From NCBI GenBank assembly GCA_049591295.1, contig JBAWEQ010000230.1:2882-66881 (forward strand): 64,000 nt of DNA, read 5' to 3'. The notes beneath the pieces are model-generated. The model had not been told where the DNA came from. It did no database searches and saw only the letters and a program-made list of their open reading frames with translations. The stretch comes from Acidobacteriota bacterium. Its GTDB lineage: Bacteria > Acidobacteriota > UBA4820 > DSQY01. The translations under genes and the position numbers were made by a program. Shown one piece after another: positions 48,782-60,636 of the stretch (its first letter is position 1; the number at the start of each line of letters is the position of its first letter).

Positions 48782-49197
48782 GCTCGTCCACCCTTCAAGA
48801 TAGTAGCATACACGCTCACGCTCGGGTTCATTCCCTTCGCCCCCGAAATTCTGCGTTGGGGATGCTGTTCCTCCGGTGGCGATTGTGCTTCACCGAAAGA
48901 AAGGACATTTTCTGTGAAGAGGGAGGGCCATTCCCTCCCCCTCCGCAGGCAAAGTCTGACGGAGGGACCCCCGCCCTTGGAGGCCTTCTTCCCCAGATCC
49001 AGTCCGGGGTCGAAGGCCCCCACCAATCCCTAATCAGGTGAAAGGCCATTTGCGTAAAGCAACGAGTCAACGCCGTTTGGGGCCTCCCTTTCAGTTCGAT
49101 CGCGGGATTGGGGTTGCCCGGCGTCGCTCGTCCTGATACGGGGGCGTGATAAAATTCAAGCCTTGGACGATTGCGGACAGAAGGGAGGCGGTGCGTG

Positions 49198-49416
49198 GGC
49201 CTTCAGAGCGACAAGAAGACTCTGCAGGGAAATGTTCAGCCGTGGCGCTGTGACCTCTGCGGGGAACCCTTCGACCCCGGTCTCGACGCCATCTGCATCC
49301 GCTGCGGCCGCCTCTGCTGCCCCGAGCACCGGGCCACGGGACGCCATCCCGGAAGCCCGGGCCTTTGCACGGAGTGCGCGGCCGCCGCCTCGCGGCTGGG
49401 GGATGAAGGCCAGTGA
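49198..49416 (+). CDS. Small Cys-rich zinc-ribbon-like protein (hypothetical)
   Basis: GTG at 49198 with GGGAGG 8 nt upstream; CDLCG...CIRCGRLCCPEH...CTEC motif; stop overlaps the EamA GTG (GTGA). Confidence 0.45.
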   Translation, partial: GLQSDKKTLQGNVQPWRCDLCGEPFDPGLDAICIRCGRLCCPEHRATGRHPGSPGLCTECAAAASRLGDEGQ

Positions 49417-50312
49417 CGGGGACCGACCGGCGTACCGTGAGCATCCTGGCCGTGGGCCTGGCCTCGCTCTCCTTCGCCGCCATCCTCGTTCGCTACTGCA
49501 ACGCGCCGGCCCCGGTCATCGCCTTCTGGCGCATGGGTCTGGCCACGCTCATCCTCACGCCGGTGCTCCTCGGAAGGTTGCGCCGGGAGCCCTGGAGACC
49601 GGCACTCCAGGCGCGGCTCCTGCCCTACACGCTGGGTGCCGGGGCCCTGCTGGCCATCCACTTCGCCACCTGGATCGCCTCGGTGCAGCTCACGACGGTG
49701 GCCTCTTCGCTCATCCTCATGTCGGCGCAGCCGGTGTGGGCGGGACTGCTGGGCTACCTCTTCCTGCGCGAACCCGTGCCGAGGCGGGGGCTTCTCGCCA
49801 TCGTCCTGGCCATGGCCGGTGTTGCCGTCATCGCCTGGGGCGACCTGGGTCGCGGGCCGGCCGGACTGGCGGGGGACGGCCTCGCGCTGGTCTCGGGGAT
49901 TGCCGTGGCCGGTTATCTCACGGTGGGGCGCCACCTGCGCCTAAAGCTGCCGCTCACACACTACTTGGTGGCGGTCTACGGGGTCTCGGCCATGGTCCTG
50001 GGGCTGCTCGTGTTGGGTTCGGGGGAGCGGTTCACCGGCTACGACGACCGGACGTGGCTGATGCTCGGGCTCTTGGCCCTCCTGCCCTCGGTGGTGGGCC
50101 ATTCCCTGGTGAACTACGCCATCCGGCACATCGAATCGTACCGGGTGAACCTGTCCATCCTGGTGGAGCCCGTGGTCTCCACGATCCTGGCGGCCATCCT
50201 CTTCGGGGAGATCCCGGGGACTAGGTTCTACCTGGGGGCCGGGTGCGTGGTGGCCGGCGTGGTGCTCGCCCTGTGGCTGCCGTCGGGCTGGTCGTTGGCC
50301 CGCCCGAAGTGA
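49413..50312 (+). CDS. DMT superfamily (EamA-type) transporter
   Basis: About 10 TM segments in two EamA halves; 299 aa. Confidence 0.85.
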   Translation: MTGTDRRTVSILAVGLASLSFAAILVRYCNAPAPVIAFWRMGLATLILTPVLLGRLRREPWRPALQARLLPYTLGAGALLAIHFATWIASVQLTTVASSLILMSAQPVWAGLLGYLFLREPVPRRGLLAIVLAMAGVAVIAWGDLGRGPAGLAGDGLALVSGIAVAGYLTVGRHLRLKLPLTHYLVAVYGVSAMVLGLLVLGSGERFTGYDDRTWLMLGLLALLPSVVGHSLVNYAIRHIESYRVNLSILVEPVVSTILAAILFGEIPGTRFYLGAGCVVAGVVLALWLPSGWSLARPK

Positions 50313-50400
50313 GGCCTCAAGAGGGGGATTTCTCCGCGAGGGTCTTGACGGCCTGGAGCACCTGCTCGTCGTGGCCCTTCACCGTGACGTTCCGCCAGAT

Positions 50401-50904
50401 CTAGCACACGATGCCGTTGGCGTCGATGAGAAAGGTGGAGCGGTTCACGCCCAGCGCCGTCCTCCCGAAGAGGCTGTGCGCCTTCCACGCGCCGTAGAGG
50501 CTGATGATCTTGCCTTCGGGATCGGAGACGAGCGTGAAGTTCAGGTGGTGCTTCCGGATGAACTCGTCGTGGGAGGCCATGGAATCCTTGCTGACCCCGA
50601 TGACCACGGCGCCCAGCTTCCGCAAGGCCGAATCGGTGTCCCTGAAGGAACAGGCCTCGCGCGTGCAGTAGGGGGTCTCGTCCTTGGGGTAGATGTAGAG
50701 GACCACGATCCTGCCCCTGAAGTCGTGCAGGCTGATGGTGCCTCCGGTGCTCGCGGGGGCCGTGAAATCGGGCGCCTTCGCACCGACCACGATGGGTGGA
50801 TACGCCATTTCGCTCTCCTTCGCTCCAGCGGGAGTGATCGCCCACGGGCCGGAGAGGGCGACGAGTCCAAGCAGGGCCAGTCCCAGCAAAGGTTCCGCTC
50901 GCAT
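50401..50904 (-). CDS. bcp: Secreted peroxiredoxin Bcp (AhpC/TSA family), cut short by an in-frame TAG; conserved C-terminus continues in frame to 50317
   Basis: Start at ATG 50904 (AGGAGGG 5 nt upstream) followed by a signal peptide. CP-x4-CR motif TPYCTREAC. ORF ends ..FLIDANGIVC at TAG 50401-50403. The next 27 in-frame codons read IWRNVTVKGHDEQVLQAVKTLAEKSPS*, matching the usual Bcp C-terminus. Confidence 0.7.
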   Translation of the reverse strand: MRAEPLLGLALLGLVALSGPWAITPAGAKESEMAYPPIVVGAKAPDFTAPASTGGTISLHDFRGRIVVLYIYPKDETPYCTREACSFRDTDSALRKLGAVVIGVSKDSMASHDEFIRKHHLNFTLVSDPEGKIISLYGAWKAHSLFGRTALGVNRSTFLIDANGIVC

Positions 50905-51038
50905 GCTTCCCTCCTGTGGCGCGGCCTGCGCCCTATAGGGAAAAACAACAACGGAGGGCCGCCGCCATTCCCACGCGGCTACCTTCCGCCCCTCCGGCGA
51001 GTCTCCCTCCGGCACCCGCTGGGGCAATTACTGATCCG

Positions 51039-51066
51039 AGAGGGAAGGGGTTGGCCCCTTCCCTCT
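51039..51066. other. Perfect 12-bp hairpin (AGAGGGAAGGGG-TTGG-CCCCTTCCCTCT) in the bcp / malic-enzyme divergent intergenic region
   Basis: Direct inspection; further palindromes nearby (gcccaccgtggtgggc; cccccgccttcgcggggg). No flanking U-run. Confidence 0.4.
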
Positions 51067-51319
51067 TGGCGCTCGGCTGGGCAAAGCCCACCGTGGTGGG
51101 CTGGTTTCGCAAGCAGGCCCCCCCGCCTTCGCGGGGGCAGGCTCAGGCTTCGGCCTCGCTGCTCTCCCATCCCCACTTCGAAGCTGCCCTTTGCAGAGAG
51201 TCAACCATGCTGGTGTCGGAGTAGTATCACAAGGGCGTCGGCGGGGAGTGGGGCCATCCCCGCCTCAAGGGCCAGATTTGGTTCTATACTGCCACCCCTG
51301 CTAGGGAGGAGGAATCCCG

Positions 51320-57929: not shown

Positions 57930-57953
57930 GATTCAACTCCTCGACGACTGAGC

Positions 57954-58145
57954 CTAAAATCCAATCAATTGCTTGACCTTGCGGACGTCGGCCTCGTGGA
58001 CGAGGTCGGCGCTCCCAAGGCGGTTCTTGCGCTTGCGGTCCTTGGAGGACAAGATGTGCCTATGGTAGGCTTTGCCCCGCTTGATCTTTCCCGTGGCGGT
58101 CAGCTTGAACCGCTTGGCCGCAGCCCGGTTGGTCTTCTTCTTTGG
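57954..58145 (-). CDS. rpmI: 50S ribosomal protein L35
   Basis: MPKKKTNRAAAKRFKLTATGKIKR... ; start at ATG 58145 with GGGAGG 6 nt upstream. Confidence 0.9.
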   Translation of the reverse strand, partial: PKKKTNRAAAKRFKLTATGKIKRGKAYHRHILSSKDRKRKNRLGSADLVHEADVRKVKQLIGF

Positions 58146-58170
58146 CATGGATATCAACCTCCCGCGTTGC

Positions 58171-58665
58171 CTACTTCTTCGTGGGCGTGAGCAGCATGGT
58201 CATCATGCGGCCCTCCATCCCGGGGGCCCGCTCAATCTTGCCCTTCTGAACCACTTCGGTGGCAATTCTGGTCAGCAGCCTCTGGGCCAGTTCGGGGTGG
58301 ACGATCTCACGCCCGCGAAAGCGGACCGTGATCTTGACCTTGTCCCCGTCCTCCAGGAATTCCTCGATCCGGCGCTTCTTGACCTGGAAGTCGTGCTCTT
58401 CGATCTTCGGCCTCAGCTTGATTTCCTTGACGACGACCTGCTTCTGCTTCTTTCTCGCCTCTTGGGCCTTCTTCTTCTCGTCGTAGAGGAACTTGCCGTA
58501 ATCGATGATCCGGCAAACCGGCGGCTGGGCGGTGGGCGCTATCTCCACCAGGTCCAGCCCCTTGGCCTCCGCCATGACCAACGCCTCATCGGGCGTCATG
58601 ATGCCGAGCTGGGCCCCGTCGTCATCGATGACCCGGATCTCCCGAACCCGGATCTGCCGATTCAA
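58171..58665 (-). CDS. infC: Translation initiation factor IF-3
   Basis: IF3 N- and C-domains (..EIRVIDDDGAQLGIM...PPVCRIIDYGKFLYD..). Annotated start is TTG at 58665 with GAGGA upstream; infC commonly uses rare start codons. Confidence 0.85.
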   Translation of the reverse strand: MNRQIRVREIRVIDDDGAQLGIMTPDEALVMAEAKGLDLVEIAPTAQPPVCRIIDYGKFLYDEKKKAQEARKKQKQVVVKEIKLRPKIEEHDFQVKKRRIEEFLEDGDKVKITVRFRGREIVHPELAQRLLTRIATEVVQKGKIERAPGMEGRMMTMLLTPTKK

Positions 58666-58704
58666 CCTCGGTCCTCTGGCTGTTGCGTCTCGGATAGCTG
58701 CCTC

Positions 58705-60636
58705 CTACTCCAGTTCCAGGGATCGGCTCTCCACCCGTCGGAGAGCCATCTCAACAAAGGTATCCACGGTCATGCTCCCCCGGTCTCCAGTCGAGCGAGT
58801 CCGCAGGGAAACGCTCGCGGATTCCTGCTCGCGGTCCCCGATCACCAGCATGTAGGGAATCTTCAGCAGCTGGGCCTCGCGAACCTTGTACCCCGTCTTC
58901 TCGGGGCGGGCGTCCACCGTCACCCTCAACCCGGCCCCCCTCAGGCGGGAGGCCACAACCTCGGAGTATGCCACATGTCGGTCGGCGATGGGAAGGAGCC
59001 TGACCTGCTCGGGGGCCAGCCAGAGCGGAAAGGCCCCGGCGAAGTGCTCGATGAGCACGCCCATGAACCGCTCGATGGACCCCATGATGGCCCGGTGGAT
59101 CATGACCGGCCTCTCGGGCGCGTTCTCGGGCCCCGTATAACTCAGTTCGAACCTCTCGGGCAGGTTGAAGTCTAGCTGTATGGTCGCGAGCTGCCACTCC
59201 CGCCCGATGGCGTCCTTGACGACGAAATCGATCTTCGGTCCGTAGAAGGCTCCATCGCCCGGGTTTACAGTGAAAGCGATCCCTTGAGCCTGGAGGATGC
59301 TGTCGAGGGCGGCCTCGGCCCGCTGCCAGATCTCGTCCGAGCCCACCGAGTTCTCGGGGCGCGTGGAGAAGTACACGTGCGGATCGCTGAAGCCGAAGAT
59401 CTCGTAGGTCCGGCGGACCAGTTCGAAGAGCGAGCGGATCTCCGACTCGATCTGCTCGGGCCGGCAGAAGATGTGGGCATCGTCCTGCGCGAAGGAGCGC
59501 ACTCGCGTGAGCCCCTGGGTGACGCCCGAGCGCTCGTAGCGGTGCAGGCGGCCGAAGTCGGCGATCCTCAGGGGCAGCTCGCGGTAGGAGTGGCTCTCGC
59601 TGCCGTAAAGCAGACAGTGGCCCGGGCAGTTCATGGGCTTGAGGCCGAATTCCCGCTTGTCGATCTCCGCCAGGAACATGTTCTCGCGGTAGTGCTCGTA
59701 GTGCCCGGACCGCTTCCAGAGCTCCACGTCGAAGACCTGGGGCGTGATGACCTCCTGGTAGCCGTATTCCCGATAGAACTCCCTCATCAGGCCCACGAGC
59801 TCGTTGTAGACGATGGCCCCCTTGGCCGTAAAGAAGGGGGAGGCGGGCGCCCACGGGTGGAGCATGAACAGGCCGAGATCCCGGCCGAGCTTGCGGTGGT
59901 CGCGGGCCTTGGCCTGCTCCAGCCGCTTCAGGTGCTCCTCCAGCTCCTTGCGGGAGAGGAAGGCCGTGGCGTAGATCCTCTGGAGCATCTTGTTGTGTTC
60001 GTCGCCCTTCCAGTAGGCGCCTGCCACGGAGAGGAGCTTGAAGGTGTCGGGCTTGATCCGTCCTGTGCTCGGCAGGTGGGGACCGCGGCAGAAGTCGTCG
60101 AAGGCGCCCTGGCGGTAAATGGAGACCGGCTCGTTCTGGCCGCGTTCGTAGGCCAGCTCTGACTTGTAGGGTTCCTGCTGCCGGTCGAAGAGCGCCTTGG
60201 CCTCCTGCCAGGGGAGCTCCTGGCGCCGGATCGGGGTGTCTCGGGCGATGATCTCGCGCATGCGCGCCTCGATCCGTTCGAGGTCCTCCGGCGTGAAGGG
60301 GGCGTCGCGGTCGAAGTCGTAGTAGAAGCCCTCCTCGATCACGGGCCCGATGGCGATCTTGGCCTCGGGGAAGAGTTCCTTCACGGCGTTGGCCATGAGG
60401 TGGGCGCAGGTATGGCGGTAGATCCCGAGCGCATCGGGAGAGCGCTCCGTGATGAGCTCCAGGGTGCAGTCGTGGTCGAGCGGCCGGTACACGTCCACGA
60501 GGCCGCCGTCGCTCTTGGCAGCGAGGCTGGCGGCGGCAAGCCGCGGGGAGATGCTCTCTCCCACCTGCTGCGGCGTCGCCCCCGAGGGGAAGACCTTGCT
60601 GGTCCCGTCGGGCAGCGTCACGCGGATCTCGGGCAC
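58705..60636 (-). CDS. thrS: Threonine--tRNA ligase
   Basis: TGS, editing and class-II catalytic core plus anticodon-binding domains. Start moved to GTG 60636 (GGAGG 5 nt upstream, giving VPEIRVTLPDG like typical ThrS); ORF-track start is TTG 60648. Confidence 0.9.
   Translation of the reverse strand: MPEIRVTLPDGTSKVFPSGATPQQVGESISPRLAAASLAAKSDGGLVDVYRPLDHDCTLELITERSPDALGIYRHTCAHLMANAVKELFPEAKIAIGPVIEEGFYYDFDRDAPFTPEDLERIEARMREIIARDTPIRRQELPWQEAKALFDRQQEPYKSELAYERGQNEPVSIYRQGAFDDFCRGPHLPSTGRIKPDTFKLLSVAGAYWKGDEHNKMLQRIYATAFLSRKELEEHLKRLEQAKARDHRKLGRDLGLFMLHPWAPASPFFTAKGAIVYNELVGLMREFYREYGYQEVITPQVFDVELWKRSGHYEHYRENMFLAEIDKREFGLKPMNCPGHCLLYGSESHSYRELPLRIADFGRLHRYERSGVTQGLTRVRSFAQDDAHIFCRPEQIESEIRSLFELVRRTYEIFGFSDPHVYFSTRPENSVGSDEIWQRAEAALDSILQAQGIAFTVNPGDGAFYGPKIDFVVKDAIGREWQLATIQLDFNLPERFELSYTGPENAPERPVMIHRAIMGSIERFMGVLIEHFAGAFPLWLAPEQVRLLPIADRHVAYSEVVASRLRGAGLRVTVDARPEKTGYKVREAQLLKIPYMLVIGDREQESASVSLRTRSTGDRGSMTVDTFVEMALRRVESRSLELE

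What the first reader, a model, noticed from the sequence alone, without database searches (positions are those of the whole stretch)
50317..50904. Peroxiredoxin bcp interrupted by an in-frame amber codon while the conserved C-terminus persists downstream
The secreted Bcp ORF ends ..STFLIDANGIVC at TAG 50401-50403. The next 27 codons in the same frame read IWRNVTVKGHDEQVLQAVKTLAEKSPS*, which is the canonical Bcp tail (..VW.KVKV.GHVEEVL.AL). The stop sits where Bcp homologues have K/R/H, so a single substitution fits (AAG or CAG to TAG). The peroxidatic and resolving Cys (PYCTREAC) are intact. Possible explanations: a recent nonsense mutation or pseudogene, a sequencing or assembly error, a functional truncated enzyme, or stop-codon readthrough.
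Basis: seen in the sequence. Interest (0 to 1): 0.55.

Follow-up and report, generated by a model that had tools for sequence, protein, structure and literature searches.

The report
Peroxiredoxin gene cut by nonsense mutation
One lineage of an uncultured Acidobacteriota bacterium carries an ordinary, recent C-to-T nonsense mutation (Gln codon CAG to stop codon TAG) in its exported Bcp/PrxQ peroxiredoxin gene; the mutation cuts off the last strand and helix of the enzyme, and nothing points to stop-codon recoding.

Summary
A Bcp/PrxQ peroxiredoxin gene lies on the minus strand (50904 to 50317). It is interrupted by TAG at 50401-50403, and 27 in-frame codons of a typical Bcp tail follow.

All 16 related loci I fetched (89-95% nucleotide identity, same gene order) are intact at this site. 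They read GTG CGC CAG/GAG ATC where the window reads GTG TGC TAG ATC. The window lineage therefore carries two C>T transitions 3 nt apart: R167C and Q168stop.

TAG is a normal stop codon here. It ends 16 of the 49 other predicted genes, and five conserved neighbours end at TAG exactly where their orthologues end. No suppressor tRNA gene lies in the window, and no RNA structure follows the TAG. All 14 other neighbouring genes compared are intact.

On the window's branch, bcp shows an excess of amino-acid changes (7:5 against 99:297 in the neighbours, p=0.016). This fits relaxed selection.

In a confident AlphaFold model of the 93%-identical orthologue, the stop falls inside the last core beta-strand. 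It removes half of that strand, the C-terminal helix, and the invariant W170 and H178.

An independent public assembly (Logan, SRR28003013) gives the same 2.1 kb, including the TAG.

Verdict: an ordinary, lineage-specific loss-of-function or truncation allele. Interest is low.

The parts
50404..50904 (-). Retained 5' part of the bcp/PrxQ gene (167 codons). This is the protein as annotated at NCBI: MGA9753026.1, 'MAG: peroxiredoxin [Acidobacteriota bacterium]'.
50909..50914 (-). Shine-Dalgarno-like GGAGGG, 4 nt upstream of the ATG at 50904-50902. It is conserved in the orthologues and supports this start over the upstream TTG at 51027.
   Evidence: read from the sequence and the alignment
50839..50904 (-). 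N-terminal hydrophobic segment (residues 1-22, MRAEPLLGLALLGLVALSGPWA). Presumed signal peptide or membrane anchor.
   Evidence: Conserved in orthologues. Modelled as a low-confidence helix, residues 5-17. Export itself is inferred.
50650..50688 (-). Active-site motif P73-K-D-E-T77-P-Y-C80-T-R-E-A-C85 (peroxidatic Cys80, resolving Cys85). Intact.
   Evidence: invariant columns
50440..50442 (-). Codon for the catalytic Arg155 (NRSTF). Intact.
50404..50406 (-). Codon 167, TGC (Cys). Every relative has CGC (Arg), so this is a window-specific C>T change.
50401..50403 (-). In-frame amber codon TAG at codon 168. The sister clade has CAG (Gln), the outgroup GAG (Glu).
50320..50400 (-). Stranded 3' remnant of bcp: 27 codons, IWRNVTVKGHDEQVLQAVKTLAEKSPS. 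It encodes the second half of the last beta-strand, the invariant W170 and H178, and the C-terminal helix.
50317..50319 (-). Original stop codon (TGA) of the full-length 195-codon gene.
49413..50312 (+). Convergent neighbour, an EamA-family transporter gene. It ends 4 nt from the original bcp stop and is intact.
50973..51091 (.). Window-specific insertion of about 118 nt in the bcp-malic enzyme intergenic region, about 70 nt upstream of the bcp ATG. It contains a hairpin with 15-nt arms at 51036-51069. Whether it bears on bcp expression is unknown.

Best explanation
This is a genuine, lineage-specific nonsense allele of an exported Bcp/PrxQ-type (atypical 2-Cys) peroxiredoxin in an uncultured Acidobacteriota bacterium.

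On the branch leading to this genome, two C>T transitions 3 nt apart turned CGC CAG (Arg167-Gln168) into TGC TAG. Ribosomes terminate at the TAG and release a 167-residue product. That product keeps the signal segment and all catalytic residues. It lacks half of the last core beta-strand (strand 165-171), the invariant Trp170 and His178, and the C-terminal helix (178-192) of the thioredoxin fold. It most probably folds poorly and is inactive or strongly impaired, so the gene is a young pseudogene or a loss-of-function variant.

The 81-nt tail still looks like Bcp only because too little time has passed for it to decay.

Shown: the mutations, their direction, their uniqueness to this lineage, the normal use of TAG as a stop, and which structural elements are removed. 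Inferred: loss of folding and activity, and export of the protein.
For: 1. Sequence: the TAG is in frame and 27 homologous codons follow.
2. Direction: L001, L003-L017 and 13 cluster members all read Arg + Gln/Glu/His at codons 167-168; only the window and its identical Logan copy read Cys + stop. A 20-kb alignment gives ((window, L012 clade 94.7%), L015/L016 89%), so the intact state is ancestral.
3. None of the 120 homologues listed, out of 1635 hits, is a short form ending at this point.
4. TAG is a stop here. It ends 16 of the 49 other predicted genes, and the sequence after those stops does not look coding. thrS, infC, rplT, the NTP-transferase gene and the acyltransferase gene end at TAG exactly where the orthologous proteins end.
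5. The damage is isolated: 14 of 14 other neighbouring genes have no in-frame stop. EamA's TGA is shared with the outgroup and is therefore ancestral.
6. Relaxed constraint: window-branch nonsynonymous:synonymous changes are 7:5 in bcp against 99:297 in 15 neighbours (Fisher p=0.016). With strict polarisation the counts are 4:1 against 56:207, p=0.0096.
7. Structure: in the AlphaFold2 model of the 93%-identical P0001 (mean pLDDT 87, core 96-98), residues 165-171 form a strand and 178-192 a helix, so the stop at 168 cuts through the strand. W170 and H178 are invariant in A1, and H178 also in A4.
8. A second assembly, Logan SRR28003013, is 100% identical over 2102 bp including the TAG.
Against: - Read pile-ups could not be inspected.
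- The Logan contig may come from the same reads as the MAG, so it rules out an assembler artefact but not a low-coverage consensus error or a minority strain variant.
- The N:S excess rests on 12 substitutions, and two neighbours (the acyltransferase gene 13:14, truD 14:19) have similar ratios.
- The truncated product keeps the whole Pfam AhpC-TSA domain (profile positions 1-121 of 124) and every catalytic residue, so residual activity is not excluded.
- Loss of folding is inferred from the model, not measured.
Confidence: 0.75

Rival explanations
1. Sequencing or consensus artefact, or a minority strain variant. In this reading the dominant population carries an intact CGC CAG gene, and the TGC TAG in the MAG comes from low coverage, damaged template (cytosine deamination gives exactly C>T) or a rare haplotype picked up by the assembler.
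For: The sequence is from a MAG. Both changes are C>T on the same strand, 3 nt apart, which is the signature of deamination damage. A relative's MAG has only about 6.6x coverage according to its contig title, so low coverage is plausible in these data sets. Reads were not available.
Against: A second assembler (Logan) gives a 100% identical 2102-bp contig. From my own knowledge, Logan unitigs require k-mers seen at least twice. The other 14 genes in 20 kb show no disruption. Pairs of substitutions within 3 nt of each other are common on this branch (51 pairs among 423 substitutions). bcp carries other window-specific amino-acid changes spread along the gene (S23I, A92S, K148R, A188T), and its N:S is elevated, which an isolated error would not produce.
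Confidence: 0.12
2. A functional truncated enzyme. In this reading the 167-residue product is a working peroxidase, perhaps with the new C-terminal Cys167 as an extra redox-active or resolving thiol.
For: All catalytic residues (P73, T77, C80, C85, R155) and the full Pfam AhpC-TSA domain lie upstream of the stop. NCBI annotates the gene as a peroxiredoxin and not as a pseudogene. The two mutations together place a Cys at the very C-terminus.
Against: None of the listed homologues ends here, and all that cover this region keep the tail. The cut goes through a core beta-strand and removes the terminal helix and the invariant W170 and H178. The allele is seen in one lineage only. The excess of amino-acid changes fits relaxation better than a new constraint.
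Confidence: 0.08
3. The TAG is decoded and does not terminate translation. This could be through pyrrolysine, an amber suppressor tRNA (for example a Gln-inserting one), a reassigned genetic code, or programmed readthrough, any of which would give a full-length protein.
For: The tail is perfectly in frame and preserved. The ancestral residue is Gln, which is what near-cognate tRNA-Gln or supE-type suppressors insert at UAG (own knowledge). Position 168 is variable (Q/E/H/K/R), so any inserted residue would probably be tolerated.
Against: TAG ends about one third of the genes in the window, including five conserved genes that stop exactly where their orthologues do. No other gene in 20 kb has an in-frame TAG. 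No orthologue has TAG at this site, so it is not a conserved recoding site. The only tRNA gene in the window is tRNA-Val(GAC). The RNA after the TAG is less structured than shuffled controls (z=+1.19). The preserved tail is explained by the youth of the mutation.
Confidence: 0.03

Closest known systems
BCP/PrxQ subfamily of peroxiredoxins (atypical 2-Cys, CxxxxC). Examples: Burkholderia PDB 5ENU; Xanthomonas campestris PrxQ/BCP PDB 3GKK, 3GKN, 3GKM; E. coli Bcp.
   Same: PxxxTxxC with the resolving Cys five residues after the peroxidatic Cys, and the catalytic Arg in an RSTF motif. The intact orthologue P0001 matches 5ENU at E=8.5e-45 and 3GKK at 3.3e-31 over residues 38-191. Pfam AhpC-TSA and Redoxin both match.
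   Different: This copy has an N-terminal hydrophobic export or anchor segment that the crystallised cytoplasmic enzymes lack. It is cut at codon 168 and so lacks the last half-strand and the C-terminal helix that all solved BCP structures possess.
Ordinary bacterial pseudogenes and loss-of-function alleles caused by single nonsense substitutions
   Same: A single transition creates a stop. The downstream reading frame is still recognisable, orthologues in sister lineages are intact, and amino-acid substitutions are locally elevated.
   Different: Nothing notable, except that a second C>T change sits in the adjacent codon (R167C).
Pyrrolysine-encoding in-frame UAG (methylamine methyltransferases mtmB/mtbB/mttB)
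   Same: An in-frame TAG with conserved protein sequence on both sides.
   Different: In Pyl genes the TAG is conserved among orthologues and the organism carries pylTSBCD. Here the TAG is unique to one lineage, the family is not a known Pyl protein, and TAG is an abundant ordinary stop.
Selenocysteine-containing peroxiredoxins (in-frame TGA at the peroxidatic position plus a SECIS element)
   Same: A stop codon inside a peroxiredoxin reading frame.
   Different: The codon is TAG and not TGA. It lies far from the catalytic Cys, at a variable surface position, and no downstream stem-loop is present.

Membership tests
Peroxiredoxin, BCP/PrxQ subfamily | Match to the AhpC-TSA / Redoxin thioredoxin-fold domain | tested here: met
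   Pfam PF00578 at E=1.5e-39 (residues 40-166) and PF08534 at E=8.1e-21. PDB BCP entries match at E down to 8.5e-45 for the 93%-identical orthologue.
Peroxiredoxin, BCP/PrxQ subfamily | Active-site PxxxTxxC with the peroxidatic Cys, plus the conserved catalytic Arg | tested here: met
   P73, T77, C80 and R155 are present and are invariant columns in A1 and A4.
Peroxiredoxin, BCP/PrxQ subfamily | Resolving Cys five residues after the peroxidatic Cys (CxxxxC, atypical 2-Cys) | tested here: met
   C80-T-R-E-A-C85; C85 is invariant in A1 and A4.
Peroxiredoxin, BCP/PrxQ subfamily | Complete thioredoxin fold, including the final beta-strand and C-terminal helix | tested here: not met
   The stop at codon 168 lies inside strand 165-171 of the model, and helix 178-192 is not translated. 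The gene is a member by descent, but the encoded product is incomplete.
Peroxiredoxin, BCP/PrxQ subfamily | Thioredoxin-dependent peroxidase activity | not testable with these tools
   Needs a biochemical assay of the 167-residue and 195-residue forms.
Pyrrolysine / amber recoding system | In-frame TAG conserved at the same position among orthologues | tested here: not met
   All 16 related loci and 13 cluster members have a sense codon (CAG, GAG or CAC) there.
Pyrrolysine / amber recoding system | TAG rare or avoided as a terminator, or in-frame TAGs in several genes | tested here: not met
   TAG ends 16 of 49 other predicted genes. No other in-frame stop was found in the 14 neighbouring genes compared with orthologues.
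Pyrrolysine / amber recoding system | Presence of tRNA(CUA) and pylS/pylBCD (or another suppressor tRNA) in the genome | tested here: inconclusive
   None in the 64-kb window, which holds only tRNA-Val(GAC). The rest of the genome was not available.
Pseudogene / nonsense allele | Derived premature stop relative to intact orthologues, with a homologous remnant downstream | tested here: met
   (polarity given by the outgroup L015/L016).
Pseudogene / nonsense allele | Relaxed purifying selection on the affected gene | tested here: inconclusive
   N:S is 7:5 against 99:297 in the neighbours, p=0.016. This is suggestive, but it rests on 12 substitutions.

The most novel reading that the evidence does not exclude
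The paired changes R167C and Q168stop might not be decay. They could be an adaptive remodelling that yields a shorter exported peroxiredoxin ending in a free C-terminal cysteine, which would act as a new resolving or partner-binding thiol. Alternatively, the amber codon could be partly read through as Gln by near-cognate tRNA, which would tune the level of the full-length enzyme.
Probability: 0.03. Interest if true: 0.5.

Novelty: already known. Interest (0 to 1): 0.08.

Why it matters
It matters little beyond annotation.
- The NCBI record (MGA9753026.1) calls this a 167-aa 'peroxiredoxin'. It would be better flagged as a truncated or probably inactive allele.
- If the mutation is real, this lineage has lost or weakened one exported peroxide-scavenging enzyme that all its close relatives keep. 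That is a small strain-level physiological difference.
- The case also shows that an in-frame stop with a conserved tail in a MAG is most simply explained by a young nonsense mutation, without invoking recoding.

Tried and rejected
**Amber recoding or a suppressor.** Rejected on stop-codon usage, the absence of a suppressor tRNA gene in the window, the absence of RNA structure after the TAG and the lack of TAG in any orthologue.

**General gene decay or a poor assembly.** Rejected: 14 of 14 neighbouring genes are intact.

**A second nonsense mutation in the convergent EamA gene** (TGA at 50310-50312 against CGA in the L012 clade). Rejected: the outgroup L015/L016 also has the 299-aa form, so the window state is ancestral and the L012 clade gained a 12-residue extension.

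**R167 as the second active-site arginine of peroxiredoxins.** Rejected when I counted human Prx2 by hand, using the sequence from memory. R167 (GIVRQIW) corresponds to Prx2 Arg139 (GVLRQIT). The active-site Arg150 named in PMC10215765 corresponds to the invariant His178 in the lost tail.

**A clustered double mutation as a sign of an unusual mutational process.** Not supported. Pairs of substitutions within 3 nt are common on this branch (51 pairs of 423). The branch's C>T share (43%) is only moderately above that of the sister branch (33%).

**Template-switch mutation at a quasi-palindrome.** The ancestral CGCCAGATCTGGCG is a perfect 14-nt palindrome, and the mutations break it instead of perfecting it. 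This argues against a template switch.

**Other copies of the amber allele.** An exact-pattern scan covering both alleles found only the intact BP9.bin43 genome among the GTDB representatives. It found nothing in the JGI metagenomes.

**Literature.** A search for the run, assembly and protein accessions found nothing.

**A bcp paralogue in the window that could compensate.** None found.

Full report
**1. The observation**

Reading window 50317-50904 on the minus strand gives a 195-codon frame: MRAEPLLGLALLGLVALSGPWAITPAGAKESEMAYPP...NRSTFLIDANGIVC*IWRNVTVKGHDEQVLQAVKTLAEKSPS*. The internal stop is TAG, the reverse complement of 50401-50403. The final stop is TGA at 50317-50319.

The product is a clear peroxiredoxin, with Pfam AhpC-TSA at E=1.5e-39 and Redoxin at 8.1e-21. 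The motif P73xxxT77xxC80, the resolving C85 and the catalytic R155 are all upstream of the stop.

The start is the ATG at 50904. It is preceded by GGAGGG, and both are conserved in the orthologues. The longer TTG-started ORF is not supported by that conservation.

The finding is therefore real and sits at the stated coordinates.

**2. Where the window comes from**

The 167-residue product is identical to NCBI MGA9753026.1, 'MAG: peroxiredoxin [Acidobacteriota bacterium]', on a 75.6-kb contig. It is also encoded on a Logan contig from run SRR28003013. That contig (L002, 2102 bp) is 100% identical to window 48962-51063, including the TAG.

**3. Comparison with relatives**

A search of 5.8 billion proteins returned 1635 homologues. 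The closest, P0001, is 94% identical and is a full-length 195-residue protein.

The 90%-identity cluster holds 15 members. Every member that reaches this region reads GIVR[Q/E/H]IWRNVTVKGHDEQVLQAVKALA. None of the 120 listed homologues is a short form ending at ..GIVC.

I fetched 16 related loci, L001 and L003-L017.
- At the DNA level the relatives read GTG CGC CAG ATC, with GAG in the L015/L016 clade. The window reads GTG TGC TAG ATC.
- A 20-kb alignment gives window against the L012 clade at 94.7% identity. Both are about 89% identical to L015/L016, which therefore serves as an outgroup.
- The intact state is ancestral. The window lineage acquired two C>T transitions 3 nt apart, R167C and Q168stop.
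- Gene order is identical in all long loci: CNNM, thrS, infC, rpmI, rplT, PatA_N, Fer4/CCG, NTP-transferase, malic enzyme, bcp, EamA, ThiI, M50, acyltransferase, LarC, TruD, aconitase.

**4. Is TAG a stop in this organism?**

A composition-filtered ORF set of 50 genes uses TGA 24 times, TAG 17 times (16 without bcp) and TAA 9 times. After the other TAG stops the in-frame continuation does not look coding, or it is simply the next gene.

Five conserved genes end at TAG exactly where the orthologous proteins end: thrS, infC, rplT, the NTP-transferase gene and the acyltransferase gene.

The window holds one tRNA gene, tRNA-Val(GAC), and no other Rfam family. The 120 nt around and after the TAG fold less well than shuffled controls (z=+1.19).

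Nothing supports pyrrolysine, a suppressor tRNA, a reassigned code or programmed readthrough.

**5. Is the damage isolated, and is it likely to be real?**

All 14 other neighbouring genes compared align end to end with their L012 orthologues, without stops or frameshifts.

EamA appears to carry an in-frame TGA relative to the L012 clade. The outgroup has the same 299-residue form, so that state is ancestral.

Within bcp the window has 11 private substitutions:
- five synonymous changes;
- four amino-acid replacements (S23I, A92S, K148R, A188T);
- R167C and Q168stop.

Counted the same way for every gene, nonsynonymous:synonymous changes on the window branch are 7:5 for bcp against 99:297 for 15 neighbours (Fisher p=0.016). 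With strict outgroup polarisation the counts are 4:1 against 56:207, p=0.0096. This fits relaxed selection on bcp in this lineage. The numbers are small, and two neighbours have similar ratios.

The tail carries 2 private changes in 81 nt, no more than the background of about 2% on this branch (423 derived substitutions in about 20 kb). Its preservation therefore needs no special explanation.

Substitution pairs within 3 nt are frequent on this branch (51 pairs), and the C>T share is only moderately raised (43% against 33% on the sister branch). The adjacent double change is not remarkable.

**6. Consequence for the protein**

The AlphaFold2 model of P0001 used 56 aligned sequences and has mean pLDDT 87.4, with 96-98 in the core.

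Its secondary structure runs E48-51, E56-58, E66-71, H78-96, E99-105, H109-119, E124-127, H132-136, E140-145, E148-153, E156-160, E165-171, H178-192.

The stop at 168 lies inside the last strand. The product loses half of that strand, W170 (invariant in A1, at least 90% in A4), H178 (invariant in both) and the C-terminal helix. Together these form the closing beta-alpha unit of the thioredoxin fold (established knowledge of the fold).

All solved BCP/PrxQ structures matched by sequence extend through this region. For example, 5ENU aligns to residues 38-189 and 3GKK to 40-191.

I infer that the truncated protein is unstable or inactive. This was not measured, and the product does keep every catalytic residue and the whole Pfam domain.

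A caution on R167. It is present in all 26 close homologues of A1 but is below 90% in the wider A4 alignment. It corresponds to Arg139 of human Prx2 (GVLRQIT), not to the active-site Arg150 named in PMC10215765. Arg150 lines up with H178 instead. This mapping rests on my own count of the Prx2 sequence.

**7. Explanations ranked**

- **Best (0.75):** a real, lineage-specific nonsense allele that gives a truncated and probably non-functional exported PrxQ, that is, a young pseudogene.
- **Rival (0.12):** a consensus error, DNA damage or a minority haplotype. The identical Logan contig and the pattern of other private changes reduce this, but it cannot be excluded without reads.
- **Rival (0.08):** a functional truncated enzyme.
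- **Rival (0.03):** decoding of the TAG.

**8. Novelty and score**

This is an ordinary event, a CAG>TAG nonsense mutation in a well-known enzyme family. It has no conserved or recurrent character and shows no sign of recoding. A specialist would not be surprised. Interest is 0.08.

The only practical consequence is for annotation: the gene should be flagged as truncated or a probable pseudogene.

Noticed in passing
window 50973-51091 (hairpin arms 51036-51050 / 51055-51069): An insertion of about 118 nt lies in the bcp-malic enzyme intergenic region, about 70 nt upstream of the bcp start. It is present only in the window and absent from all six aligned relatives. It contains a 15-nt inverted repeat and is not repeated elsewhere in the window. 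The same spacer shows further indels between clades, so it is a hot spot for small insertions. The insertion might have disturbed the bcp promoter before or after the nonsense mutation.
   Followed up: partly
window 58660-58707, minus strand: infC follows thrS in the same frame, directly after the thrS TAG. Gene callers start infC at the TTG at 58665. An ATC at 58695-58693 sits 5 nt after a perfect GGAGG and would add 10 residues. IF3 genes are known for non-canonical AUU/AUC starts, so the true start is ambiguous.
   Followed up: no
window about 57940-58670 (rpmI, infC): rpmI (L35) is only 85% identical in protein to the L012 orthologue, whereas its neighbours are 97-100% identical. infC has 17 synonymous and 0 nonsynonymous window-branch changes, against 0 on the sister branch. 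Private substitutions are densely clustered at 57948-58017 and 58252-58318. This looks like a recombination tract from a more distant lineage.
   Followed up: no
window 50310-50345; L012 10461-10496: The convergent EamA gene ends at TGA in the window and in the outgroup (299 aa). The L012/L001/L008 clade has CGA there and reads on for 12 more residues, overlapping the 3' end of bcp by 32 nt. This is a stop-loss extension in the sister clade and not a defect in the window.
   Followed up: yes
window 50392-50406, minus strand; L001, L012, L017: The ancestral sequence across codons 167-171, CGCCAGATCTGGCG, is a perfect 14-nt palindrome that contains a BglII-type AGATCT and a GATC. Both window mutations fall in its left arm and break it. 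The new allele also creates a CTAG. That tetranucleotide is strongly under-represented in the window (28 observed, about 199 expected from base composition).
   Followed up: partly
L012, L013, L014 around the bcp start: In the sister clade the bcp start is GTG, with a 2-nt difference from the window's ATG region. Public gene calls there start at the internal Met33 (163 aa) and drop the conserved hydrophobic N-terminal segment. The export signal of this family is therefore systematically missed in those annotations.
   Followed up: partly
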